Positions 47 through 192 of a stretch of 10,294 nucleotides of DNA are shown piece after piece; position 1 is the stretch's first letter, and each line of letters begins with the position of its first letter. Both the position numbers and the translations under genes were made by a program. Source of the DNA: a virus. The notes under the pieces are model-generated. The model was not told the origin of the DNA. It worked only from the letters and a program-made list of their open reading frames with translations, and searched no databases. Where the stretch lies: UHGV virus genome UHGV-1838671. One strand, 5' to 3'.

Positions 47-79
47 AACCCTCTGTTTTTACAGGGGGTTTTTGTTTTT
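47..79 (+). terminator. Rho-independent terminator at the left edge, upstream of the integrase
   Basis: Stem CCCTCTG (49-55) pairs with CAGGGGG (62-68) with one G-U wobble, loop TTTTTA; extendable by A-T pairs 47-48 with 69-70; followed by TTTTTGTTTTT (69-79). The reverse-strand version lacks a U-tract. Confidence 0.6.
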
Positions 80-134
80 ATGTATTCATTTCTATTCACT
101 CTATACCATATTTTTCGGCGGTACAGGTGACGGT

Positions 135-151
135 ATTACCTTAAAGGTATA
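135..151. promoter_or_regulatory. Operator-like palindrome ATTACC-N5-GGTATA, 42 bp upstream of the integrase start
   Basis: 10 of 12 arm positions match the ATTACC-N5-GGTAAT motif seen at the immunity region. Flanked by further half-sites at about 10-bp spacing: GGTGA 126-130, TTACC 136-140, GGTAT 146-150, ATACC 157-161. Confidence 0.35.
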
Positions 152-192
152 CTCTCATACCGTCATGAAAATGGTTTCTATACGGGTGAATT

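What the first reader, a model, noticed from the sequence alone, without database searches (positions are those of the whole stretch)
47..161. Left prophage boundary: host-type terminator followed by operator half-site array before the integrase
A strong + strand terminator (47-79) ends an upstream transcription unit. Between it and the integrase start is a run of half-sites at about 10-bp spacing (GGTGA 126, TTACC 136, GGTAT 146, ATACC 157) related to the immunity-region operator. This suggests the integrase is under repressor-type control rather than simply read through from pL. The attachment site is probably at or just left of the window start; no tRNA is visible.
Basis: partly seen in the sequence, partly recalled or inferred. 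Interest (0 to 1): 0.4.

Follow-up and report, generated by a model that had tools for sequence, protein, structure and literature searches.

The report
guaA prophage end: terminator, int control sites
This is the already described left end (attL) of a phiV10/epsilon15-type prophage in the E. coli guaA gene: its terminator is phage DNA, not host DNA, and the "half-site array" is two integrase arm-type sites flanking one probable repressor operator on the integrase promoter.

Summary
The sequence features are real, but they are not a single array and the terminator is not host DNA.

- **Origin.** The window starts one base after the guaA stop codon of E. coli 85.0412. It is 98% identical to phage phiV10.
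- **Boundary.** Empty-site genomes share homology only up to window base 2. The published 17-bp core ATTGAGTGGGAATGATT therefore lies at -14..2, and bases 3-192 are phage DNA (the P' arm).
- **Terminator.** The hairpin at 47-79 is a phage-carried look-alike of the native guaA terminator (21/24 bases). The native copy sits 39.9 kb away at attR.
- **Outer pentamers.** GGTGA (126) and ATACC (157) belong to GTGACGGTAT and its inverted copy. This motif occurs on both att arms and upstream of nearly every related integrase gene, with or without this repressor. The epsilon15 GenBank record already annotates it as an integrase-binding site.
- **Inner pentamers.** TTACC (136) and GGTAT (146) form TTACC-N5-GGTAT, a 9/10 match to the phage's TTACC-N5-GGTAA operator. 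The half-sites are invariant in 13 lineages while the spacer varies. A match this good upstream of int occurs only in loci that also encode the repressor, or in their truncated close relatives.
- **Most likely function (inferred).** The int promoter (GTGACG-15-TATACT) is probably repressed by Rep and auto-regulated by Int. No binding or transcription was tested.

This is mostly known biology, so interest is low.

The parts
1..2 (+). Last 2 bp (TT) of the 17-bp att core ATTGAGTGGGAATGATT. The other 15 bp are the last five guaA codons, immediately left of the window.
   Evidence: Empty-site genomes match only up to window base 2. The same 17-mer is found at attL, attB, attP and attR. The core is published for ZX5, phiV10 and epsilon15 (PMC9782041).
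3..192 (+). P' arm of attP/attL. This is phage DNA between the core and the int start.
   Evidence: It is contiguous with the Rz-side P arm in the circular pNADC1036guaAphage (L003) and in phiV10 and epsilon15. It is absent from empty sites.
47..79 (+). Intrinsic terminator carried by the phage (stem-loop 47-70, T tract 71-79). It resembles the native guaA terminator.
   Evidence: It is annotated as a rho-independent terminator in epsilon15 and phiV10. It matches 21/24 bases of the native AACCCTCTGTTACTACAGAGGGTT found in attB and attR. Stem conserved and loop variable.
116..124 (+). Weaker direct copy of the arm-type repeat (CGGCGGTAC; CGGTA at 119-123 is invariant).
   Evidence: Alignment A1. 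It reads GACGGTAT/GACGGTAC in the Klebsiella and Enterobacter phages.
126..136 (+). Arm-type site GGTGACGGTAT.
   Evidence: The same 11-mer is in the P arm at attR (L055 29707-29717). The homologous position is annotated as an 'integrase' protein_bind feature in epsilon15. The GACGGTA motif occurs upstream of int in nearly all relatives examined (33 of 34 loci).
136..150 (.). Repressor (Rep) operator-like palindrome TTACCTTAAAGGTAT.
   Evidence: It has 1 mismatch to TTACC-N5-GGTAA. The half-sites are invariant and the N5 spacer is variable in 13 lineages. Matches this good occur only in loci that also carry a Rep homologue or in their truncated or degraded close relatives, including the non-alignable Pantoea L020. 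The identical site is present in SPC32H.
148..153 (+). Candidate -10 hexamer TATACT of the int promoter (TATAAT in epsilon15). It pairs with GTGACG at 127-132 across a 15-bp spacer.
   Evidence: This is the best-scoring pair on the + strand of 60-192 and falls in the top 0.1% of window positions. GGTATA at 146-151 is invariant. It is a prediction only.
157..166 (-). Inverted arm-type site (ATACCGTCAT on the + strand, ATGACGGTAT on the - strand).
193..1443 (+). int, a P4-type tyrosine integrase with an N-terminal arm-binding domain and a GTG start. GGGTGA at 184-189 is a possible ribosome-binding site.
   Evidence: Pfam PF13356, PF22022 and PF00589. RefSeq CDS.
362..371 (+). GTGACGGTAT copy inside int.
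   Evidence: Annotated as an integrase site in epsilon15. GAC GGT ATC is the only run of three or more nucleotide-invariant codons in the first 720 nt of int.
452..461 (+). Second GTGACGGTAT copy inside int.
   Evidence: Synonymous positions of GAC and GGT are invariant in 13 lineages.
2690..2938 (-). AlpA-family excisionase/regulator, the likely recombination directionality factor. It is transcribed from pL.
   Evidence: Annotated. The epsilon15 gp33 homologue is named 'excisionase and transcriptional regulator'. It accompanies int in most relatives.
5524..6108 (-). Rep, the prophage repressor presumed to recognise TTACC-N5-GGTAA.
   Evidence: HTH_3 domain. Full-length match to the SPC32H Rep structure 5D50, E = 4e-42.
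5390..6563 (.). Reference operators of the immunity region, starting at 5390, 5452, 6164, 6212 and 6549. A further pair starts at 8495 and 8557.

Best explanation
Window 1-192 is attL of a 39.9-kb phiV10/epsilon15-type (Uetakevirus) prophage integrated in the last codons of guaA. From base 3 rightwards it is the phage's P' arm. It carries three functional parts.

**1. A phage-borne intrinsic terminator (47-79).** It copies the guaA terminator. In the lysogen it replaces the displaced host terminator and stops guaBA transcription before int. In the circular phage it stops the late lysis-operon transcript (holin, endolysin, Rz), which runs in the same direction towards int.

**2. Integrase arm-type sites.** These are GTGACGGTAT at 126-136, a weaker copy at 116-124 and an inverted copy at 157-166. 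Matching copies lie in the P arm and at 362 and 452 inside int. They serve recombination. Because they cover the candidate -35 hexamer and the predicted transcription start, they probably also make Int repress its own promoter.

**3. One Rep operator (136-150).** It lies between the arm sites and overlaps the candidate -10 hexamer TATACT.

**Proposed working.** int has its own promoter and cannot be fed from pL.
- The promoter is open on infection, before Rep accumulates.
- Rep shuts it in the lysogen.
- It reopens, together with pL and xis, when the antirepressor removes Rep.
- Int then damps its own expression.

**Shown here:** the boundary, the phage origin of the terminator, the two motif classes and their conservation and distribution.

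**Inferred:** the promoter position, which protein binds which motif, and the direction of regulation.
For: **Boundary**
- The window is 100% identical to NZ_CP122448.1, starting directly after guaA.
- Empty-site genomes share homology up to base 2 only.
- The core is identical in attL, attB, attP and attR, and the prophage measures 39,897 bp.
- The core is published.

**Terminator**
- Scan and fold support it.
- It is present in free phage genomes and annotated there.
- It matches the native guaA terminator at 21/24 bases.
- The stem is conserved while the loop varies.

**Arm-type sites**
- The motif is enriched, 5 hits against 0.35 expected.
- It is present on both arms.
- The 7-mer GACGGTA occurs 1-7 times (at least twice in 30 loci) within 200 bp upstream of int in 33 of the 34 related loci examined, down to about 47% integrase identity, whether or not Rep is present. 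The exception is the Citrobacter sedlakii locus L019.
- Int carries the PF13356 arm-binding domain.
- The intragenic copies are invariant at synonymous positions, against an 11% background.
- The epsilon15 record makes the same assignment.

**Operator**
- The site is a 9/10 match to a motif with 8 hits against 0.13 expected.
- TTACC and GGTAT are invariant while 4 of the 5 spacer columns vary in 13 lineages.
- The mismatch is at the outermost position, where presumed natural operators also vary, for example GTACC at 6549 and ATACC in BUCT711.
- An independent match at -43 occurs in the Rep-positive Pantoea locus, whose upstream region does not align. The Rep-positive Rahnella locus has a 2-mismatch match at -46.
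- Apart from two close relatives of the Uetakevirus lineage whose loci are truncated or degraded (L010, L014), none of the 19 loci without a detected Rep homologue has a match with 1 mismatch or fewer.
- The Rep-negative guaA island in Edwardsiella keeps the terminator and the GACGGTA repeats but lacks the operator-like site.
- In a complete relative, 11 of 13 hits lie in the 8.6% of the genome that is intergenic.
- Rep is homologous to SPC32H Rep.

**Promoter and precedent**
- GTGACG-15-TATACT is the best candidate promoter.
- Precedent for an int promoter inside attL repressed by Int and the excisionase: KplE1 intS (PMC2951348).
Against: - No binding or transcription data exist for this region. 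The papers most likely to hold them (Kim & Ryu 2013; Kim et al. 2016; Kropinski 2007) could not be read.
- The epsilon15 curators annotated repressor sites elsewhere in the genome but not upstream of int.
- The operator-like site shares GGTAT with the arm motif. In the Klebsiella lineage that repeat reads TACGGTAT, which is closer to an arm site. The match could therefore partly be a by-product of closely packed arm sites.
- It is a single site, whereas Rep operators usually come in pairs about 62 bp apart.
- 1-mismatch hits do occur inside genes in SPC32H, 3 of 12.
- The promoter has a short 15-bp spacer and fell below the default scan threshold.
- Every phage record with this Rep also has this Int. 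A clean covariation test across different immunity types was therefore impossible.
Confidence: 0.62

Rival explanations
1. Only integrase arm-type (and perhaps IHF or Xis) sites are present. The TTACC-N5-GGTAT match is a side effect of tightly packed GGTA-containing arm sites and the -10 hexamer. Rep does not bind here, and int is controlled only by Int and Xis, as in KplE1 and P4.
For: - GGTAT is the 3' end of the arm motif and TAT is part of the -10 hexamer.
- The Klebsiella lineage has TACGGTAT at this position.
- The epsilon15 annotation lists no repressor site here.
- It is a single unpaired site.
- False 1-mismatch hits occur in coding DNA.
Against: - TACC at 137-140 is invariant in 13 lineages, yet it is not part of the arm consensus. 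The P-arm copy is followed by ATAAA instead.
- None of the 19 more distant Rep-negative loci has a match with 1 mismatch or fewer, although nearly all are rich in arm sites.
- Independent matches occur in the Rep-positive Pantoea and Rahnella loci at the equivalent place.
Confidence: 0.22
2. One reading: all four pentamers form one array of repressor operator half-sites, and the terminator is host DNA.
For: - The four pentamers lie about 10 bp apart and all contain GGT/ACC.
- The middle pair matches the operator.
Against: - GGTGA-N5-TTACC and GGTAT-N6-ATACC have the wrong half-site orientation or spacing for the TTACC-N5-GGTAA operator.
- The outer pentamers are embedded in GTGACGGTAT, which is also found in Rep-negative elements from beta- and alpha-proteobacteria.
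- The terminator lies on the phage side of the crossover.
Confidence: 0.03
3. The GACGGTAT repeats are bound not by Int but by the AlpA-family excisionase, or by another factor that travels with int. They act mainly as transcriptional control sites rather than as arm sites for recombination.
For: - An AlpA-type gene accompanies int in most relatives.
- Two copies lie 170 and 260 bp inside int, which is far from the core for arm sites.
- The candidate -35 hexamer is weak (GTGACG with a 15-bp spacer), which would suit an activator-dependent promoter.
Against: - The motif is on both arms of attP and in both orientations, which is typical of Int arm sites.
- Int has a dedicated arm-binding domain.
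- The motif is also present in loci where no xis homologue was detected, for example L022, L027, L030 and L031.
Confidence: 0.1

Closest known systems
attP/attL of Escherichia phage phiV10, vB_EcoP_ZX5 and Salmonella phage epsilon15 (genus Uetakevirus), which integrate at the 3' end of guaA
   Same: - Same 17-bp core and same position about 190 bp upstream of a P4-type int.
- 98% nucleotide identity to phiV10 over 1-1500.
- Same terminator and the same four GTGACGGTAT sites that the epsilon15 record annotates.
   Different: Nothing substantive. This is another copy of the same element, present in about 10% of complete E. coli genomes (568 of 5426). The Rep-operator-like site at 136-150 is not annotated in those records.
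KplE1 (CPS-53) intS regulation, and P4 int regulated by Int and Vis
   Same: - int lies next to attL and is transcribed away from it from its own promoter inside the recombination region.
- Recombinase sites overlap that promoter, which predicts negative autoregulation (PMC2951348). The P4 case is from my own knowledge.
   Different: - The target here is the end of a protein-coding gene, not a tRNA gene.
- Autoregulation is only inferred here.
- An additional prophage-repressor operator seems to be inserted between the arm sites.
SPC32H Rep/Ant immunity system (PDB 5D50)
   Same: - The window's Rep matches SPC32H Rep over its full length (E = 4e-42).
- SPC32H carries the identical TTACCTTAAAGGTAT upstream of its int.
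   Different: I could not confirm from the literature which sequences Rep was shown to bind. Whether int belongs to its regulon is untested.
Phages that rebuild the 3' end of their target gene (for example e14 in icd, and tRNA- or ssrA-integrating phages); from my own knowledge
   Same: The phage carries a replacement for what integration cuts off. Here that is the last five guaA codons in the core plus a terminator.
   Different: The replaced element includes a recognisable, diverged copy of the host gene's terminator. That copy also insulates int from the phage's own late operon.

Membership tests
Uetakevirus (phiV10/epsilon15) guaA attachment site | 17-bp core ATTGAGTGGGAATGATT shared by attP and the 3' end of guaA | tested here: met
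   Identical in attL (L001 3986-4002), attB (L002), attP (L003) and attR (L055 29789-29805). Published.
Uetakevirus (phiV10/epsilon15) guaA attachment site | P4-type integrase about 190 bp right of the core, with phiV10-like gene content | tested here: met
Intrinsic (rho-independent) terminator | G+C-rich hairpin followed directly by a T tract, more stable than shuffled sequence | tested here: met
   (z = -3.9). Stem conserved and loop variable.
Intrinsic (rho-independent) terminator | Termination of transcription in vivo or in vitro | not testable with these tools
   Needs a transcription assay or RNA 3'-end mapping.
Host-derived (bacterial-side) sequence | Present at the unoccupied site | tested here: not met
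   Empty sites diverge from window base 3 onwards. The native terminator is found after attR.
Integrase arm-type binding sites | Repeated motif, different from the core, on both arms of attP | tested here: met
   P arm GGTGACGGTAT plus ACGGTAC. P' arm at 126-136 and 157-166.
Integrase arm-type binding sites | The motif travels with the integrase family regardless of the rest of the element, and Int has an arm-binding domain | tested here: met
   (GACGGTA present upstream of int in 33 of 34 loci, at least twice in 30). PF13356.
Integrase arm-type binding sites | Physical binding by the Int N-terminal domain | not testable with these tools
   Only predicted, here and in the epsilon15 record.
Rep (SPC32H-type) operator | Palindrome TTACC-N5-GGTAA | tested here: inconclusive
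   9 of 10 half-site bases match, with the mismatch at the outermost base. Natural sites vary at that position.
Rep (SPC32H-type) operator | Conserved half-sites with a free spacer, and presence tied to presence of Rep | tested here: met
   The number of independent lineages is small (about 3).
Rep (SPC32H-type) operator | Paired sites about 62 bp apart, as at OL and at 8495/8557 | tested here: not met
   No partner at +/-62 bp. Only a lone TTACC at 198-202 inside int.
Rep (SPC32H-type) operator | Rep binding and repression | not testable with these tools
   EMSA, footprinting or a reporter assay is needed.
KplE1/P4-type self-regulated integrase gene | The int promoter lies inside attL and overlaps recombination-protein sites | tested here: inconclusive
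   The geometry fits. The promoter is only a prediction.
KplE1/P4-type self-regulated integrase gene | Negative regulation by Int and/or the excisionase | not testable with these tools
   Needs reporter fusions.

The most novel reading that the evidence does not exclude
In Uetakeviruses the integrase promoter is embedded in attL and is under dual control. A single Rep operator sits between two Int arm-type sites, so excision competence would be coupled directly to antirepressor-driven loss of Rep. Further Int sites 170 and 260 bp inside the int coding sequence are held constant at synonymous positions. They might take part in autoregulation, by looping or as a roadblock, rather than in recombination.
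Probability: 0.5. Interest if true: 0.3.

Novelty: already known. Interest (0 to 1): 0.2.

Why it matters
- **Annotation.** The prophage starts inside guaA, 15 bp before its stop codon. The terminator that now serves guaBA is viral. About one in ten complete E. coli genomes carry this arrangement.
- **Small new point.** A conserved repressor-operator-like site sits on the int promoter of the whole phiV10/epsilon15/SPC32H group. It gives a simple, testable model for how a phage whose int cannot be read from pL times integration and excision. SPC32H already has purified Rep and Ant with which to test it.
- **Scope.** None of this changes how phage integration is understood.

Tried and rejected
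- **tRNA and Rfam scans.** No tRNA was found, and the only Rfam match was a chance-level isrG hit elsewhere.
- **Default sigma-70 scan.** It found no + strand promoter in 80-192. A weighted scan was needed.
- **Primary papers.** I tried to read those on epsilon15 (PMC2698709) and SPC32H Rep (PMC4983836, PMC3807360, and the DOI). None is held. What Rep was experimentally shown to bind is therefore not verified here.
- **ZX5 paper.** It confirms the core but has nothing on the int promoter.
- **Search for a clean covariation test.** I looked for phages with this Rep but another integrase, or this integrase with another immunity type. In the phage collection the Rep set and the Int set coincide, 36-37 records.
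- **L014 (Scandinavium).** It looked like a Rep-negative relative that keeps the site, but it is a truncated prophage remnant and so is uninformative.
- **A partner operator 62 bp away.** Only a lone TTACC within int codons 2-4 was found. I rejected it as protein-coding constraint.
- **Host origin of the terminator.** Rejected by the empty-site comparison.

Full report
**Where the window comes from**

The first 1500 bases are 100% identical to the E. coli 85.0412 chromosome and 95-99% identical to about 550 other complete E. coli genomes. In that genome, window base 1 is the first base after the guaA stop codon. It is followed by int and a minus-strand block: DUF1382, MT-A70 methylase, PerC, an AlpA-type regulator, RecT and an exonuclease. 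Against phage records the same stretch is 98% identical to phiV10 and related coliphages. It is 75-81% identical to epsilon15, SPN1S/SPC32H, Enterobacter phage Tyrion and Klebsiella podoviruses, all of genus Uetakevirus.

**The boundary**

I searched a 600-bp query spanning the end of guaA and window 1-200 against all 5426 complete E. coli genomes.
- 568 genomes match the whole query.
- All the others match only up to query base 402, which is window base 2.

One hit is a 38.7-kb circular record named pNADC1036guaAphage, an excised copy of the phage that supplies attP. Comparing attL, attB (K-12), attP and the attR of the window's own strain gives one shared 17-mer, ATTGAGTGGGAATGATT. This is the last five guaA codons plus TT. 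It is the core shown experimentally for vB_EcoP_ZX5, which that paper also cites as proven for phiV10 and epsilon15 (PMC9782041).

The core therefore lies at window -14..2, and the prophage is 39,897 bp long. There is indeed no tRNA, because the target is a protein-coding gene.

**The terminator**

The hairpin is real.
- The scan finds a 10-pair stem at 47-70 followed by a T tract.
- The fold is -16 kcal/mol with z = -3.9.
- The 5' arm of the stem is invariant and the loop varies across 13 lineages.

It is not host DNA, because it lies to the right of the crossover. It is present in the circular phage and in free phiV10 and epsilon15, where it is already annotated as a rho-independent terminator. 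The native guaA terminator, AACCCTCTGTTACTACAGAGGGTT, sits directly after attR, 39.9 kb away.

The phage copy, AACCCTCTGTTTTTACAGGGGGTT, matches the native one at 21 of 24 bases (22 of 24 in phiV10). The phage therefore carries a diverged copy of the terminator it displaces.

In the phage genome the lysis genes (holin, endolysin, Rz) lie just upstream of attP on the same strand as int. The same hairpin would therefore also stop late transcription before int. That last step is inference.

**The 'half-site array'**

*Motif A* is the immunity operator TTACC-N5-GGTAA.
- Allowing one mismatch gives 8 hits in the window against 0.13 expected.
- They start at 5390 and 5452 (next to the pL-like promoter), at 6164 and 6212 (between Rep and the cro-like gene), at 6549, at 8495 and 8557, and at 136-150 (TTACCTTAAAGGTAT).

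*Motif B* is GTGACGGTAT.
- Allowing one mismatch gives 5 hits against 0.35 expected, all between 127 and 714.
- They are 127-136 (+), 157-166 (-), 362-371 (+), 452-461 (+) and 705-714 (-).

The same 11-mer, GGTGACGGTAT, followed by ACGGTAC, lies in the other arm of attP, which sits at attR in the lysogen. The epsilon15 GenBank record annotates exactly these positions as 'integrase' binding sites: one in the P arm, one in the P' arm and two inside int.

**Which protein does each motif follow?**

I fetched 46 loci from other species that encode relatives of this integrase and examined 34 of them, counting three phage loci as well.
- The 7-mer GACGGTA occurs within 200 bp upstream of int in 33 of the 34, and at least twice in 30, with up to seven copies in both orientations.
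- This holds down to about 47% protein identity, in gamma-, beta- and alpha-proteobacteria, whether or not the element has a Rep homologue.
- The one exception is the Citrobacter sedlakii locus L019.
- Int carries the PF13356 arm-binding domain.

This is the pattern expected of arm-type integrase sites.

The two intragenic copies are also constrained at the DNA level. Among 154 codons whose amino acid is invariant in 13 lineages, only 11% keep the third base. GAC GGT ATC at 364-372 is the only run of three or more invariant codons in the first 720 nt, and GAC GGT at 454-459 is invariant too.

Motif A behaves differently.
- In the 13 Uetakevirus-type lineages, TTACC and GGTAT upstream of int are invariant. 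Four of the five spacer columns vary, giving TTAAA, CTAAA, CTTAA, TGTAA, CCAAA and ATTAC.
- A match with at most one mismatch upstream of int occurs in all lineages that have Rep and the TTACC-N5-GGTAA sites.
- It also occurs in the Pantoea locus L020 (TTACCAGATTGGTAG at -43), whose upstream region does not align with the window. Rahnella L034 has a two-mismatch match at -46.
- Two close relatives, L010 and L014, keep the site although no Rep was detected. L010 is cut off about 5 kb past int. L014 is a truncated prophage remnant.
- None of the other 19 loci without a detected Rep homologue has such a match, although nearly all are full of arm sites.
- The Edwardsiella piscicida locus L022 is also integrated at guaA and has the same terminator and the GACGGTA repeats. 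It has no detected Rep homologue and no operator sites, and its int ORF is truncated. It lacks the operator-like site.
- In the complete relative L003, 11 of 13 hits fall in the 8.6% of the genome that is intergenic.
- Rep is a full-length homologue of the structurally solved SPC32H repressor (5D50, E = 4e-42), and SPC32H has the identical site upstream of its int.

**Cautions on the operator**

- The site is single, while most operators come in pairs about 62 bp apart.
- It shares GGTAT with the arm motif, and in the Klebsiella lineage that repeat reads TACGGTAT.
- One-mismatch hits inside genes do occur in SPC32H.
- The epsilon15 curators did not mark it.
- Because every phage record with this Rep also has this Int, the evidence for co-occurrence rests on about three independent lineages.

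I put the chance that Rep really binds here at roughly 0.6-0.7.

**Promoter and mechanism**

int is on the plus strand. All early-left genes from pL run on the minus strand and end 4 bp from the int stop. pL can therefore never transcribe int in the sense direction, and int needs its own promoter within 80-192.

The best candidate is GTGACG (127-132), a 15-bp spacer, then TATACT (148-153). It falls in the top 0.1% of positions in the window, and the -10 hexamer reads TATAAT in epsilon15. On this reading:
- the -35 hexamer lies in an arm site;
- the -10 hexamer lies under the right half of the operator;
- the transcription start lies in the inverted arm site.

The proposed working is as follows.
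- The promoter is open on infection.
- Rep closes it in the lysogen.
- It reopens with pL (which supplies the AlpA-type Xis) when the antirepressor removes Rep.
- Int damps it by binding its arm sites.

The last point follows the KplE1 intS precedent, in which attL overlaps the int promoter and both Int and the excisionase repress it (PMC2951348). All of this paragraph is inference from sequence.

**Comparison with what is known, and verdict**

The boundary, core, terminator and integrase-site motif are already in the public records and papers for phiV10, ZX5 and epsilon15. This window is simply another copy, so the finding as a whole is already known.

- The boundary and the idea of repressor control hold up.
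- The 'host-type' terminator and the single four-part operator array do not.

The one modest addition is the conserved Rep-operator-like site on the int promoter, together with the DNA-level constraint on the intragenic arm sites. Interest is low, at 0.2.

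Noticed in passing
window 362-371 and 452-461 (also 705-714, minus strand, 1 mismatch): Copies of the arm-type motif GTGACGGTAT lie 170 and 260 bp inside the int coding sequence. Their synonymous positions are invariant in 13 lineages, against an 11% background. They persist at the same codons in more distant gamma-proteobacterial relatives. This is unusually far from the core for arm sites.
   Followed up: partly
window 5390/5452 and 8495/8557; the same in L009, L011, L012, L015-L017: Rep operators occur as pairs exactly 62 bp apart (start to start), each pair flanking a promoter-like site. 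This spacing fits the reported tetrameric Rep bridging two sites.
   Followed up: partly
window 7114-7266: An array of five to seven direct repeats (CCCAAAAACGGGA-like units, 18-24 bp apart) lies inside the DnaT/HTH_36 replication-initiator gene (6860-7675). It looks like a lambda-O-style origin with iterons. The terminator scan mis-called two of the repeats on the minus strand.
   Followed up: partly
window 1441-1450: The int stop (1443) and the last pL-operon gene, DUF1382 (ending at 1447), are convergent and 4 bp apart, with no predicted terminator between them. pL transcription may therefore run antisense through int towards attL.
   Followed up: no
L022 9780-11017 (Edwardsiella piscicida): A different element is integrated at the end of guaA, with no detected Rep homologue, no operator sites and large plus-strand ORFs. 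It carries a related int whose ORF is truncated, the same terminator sequence and GACGGTA repeats. The int-att-terminator module therefore moves between element types.
   Followed up: partly
window 198-202: A lone TTACC half-site lies exactly 62 bp downstream of the operator-like site, within int codons 2-4 (CTT ACC GAT). It is probably just coding constraint.
   Followed up: no
L055 29757-29769 (P arm, at attR of the same prophage): TATCAGTCAATTG fits the IHF consensus WATCARNNNNTTR. It is partly conserved in the P arm of the other lineages. The epsilon15 record predicts IHF sites in this area.
   Followed up: no
L055 2205-2237; L003 25015-25047: Two operator-like sites 18 bp apart lie inside the 5' end of the small terminase gene. 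These are the only operator hits within a gene in L003, and they may control the late operon.
   Followed up: no
E. coli genome collection: 568 of 5426 complete E. coli genomes (about 10%) carry this int joined to guaA. One strain (NADC1036) was also assembled with the excised circular form as a separate 'plasmid'.
   Followed up: partly
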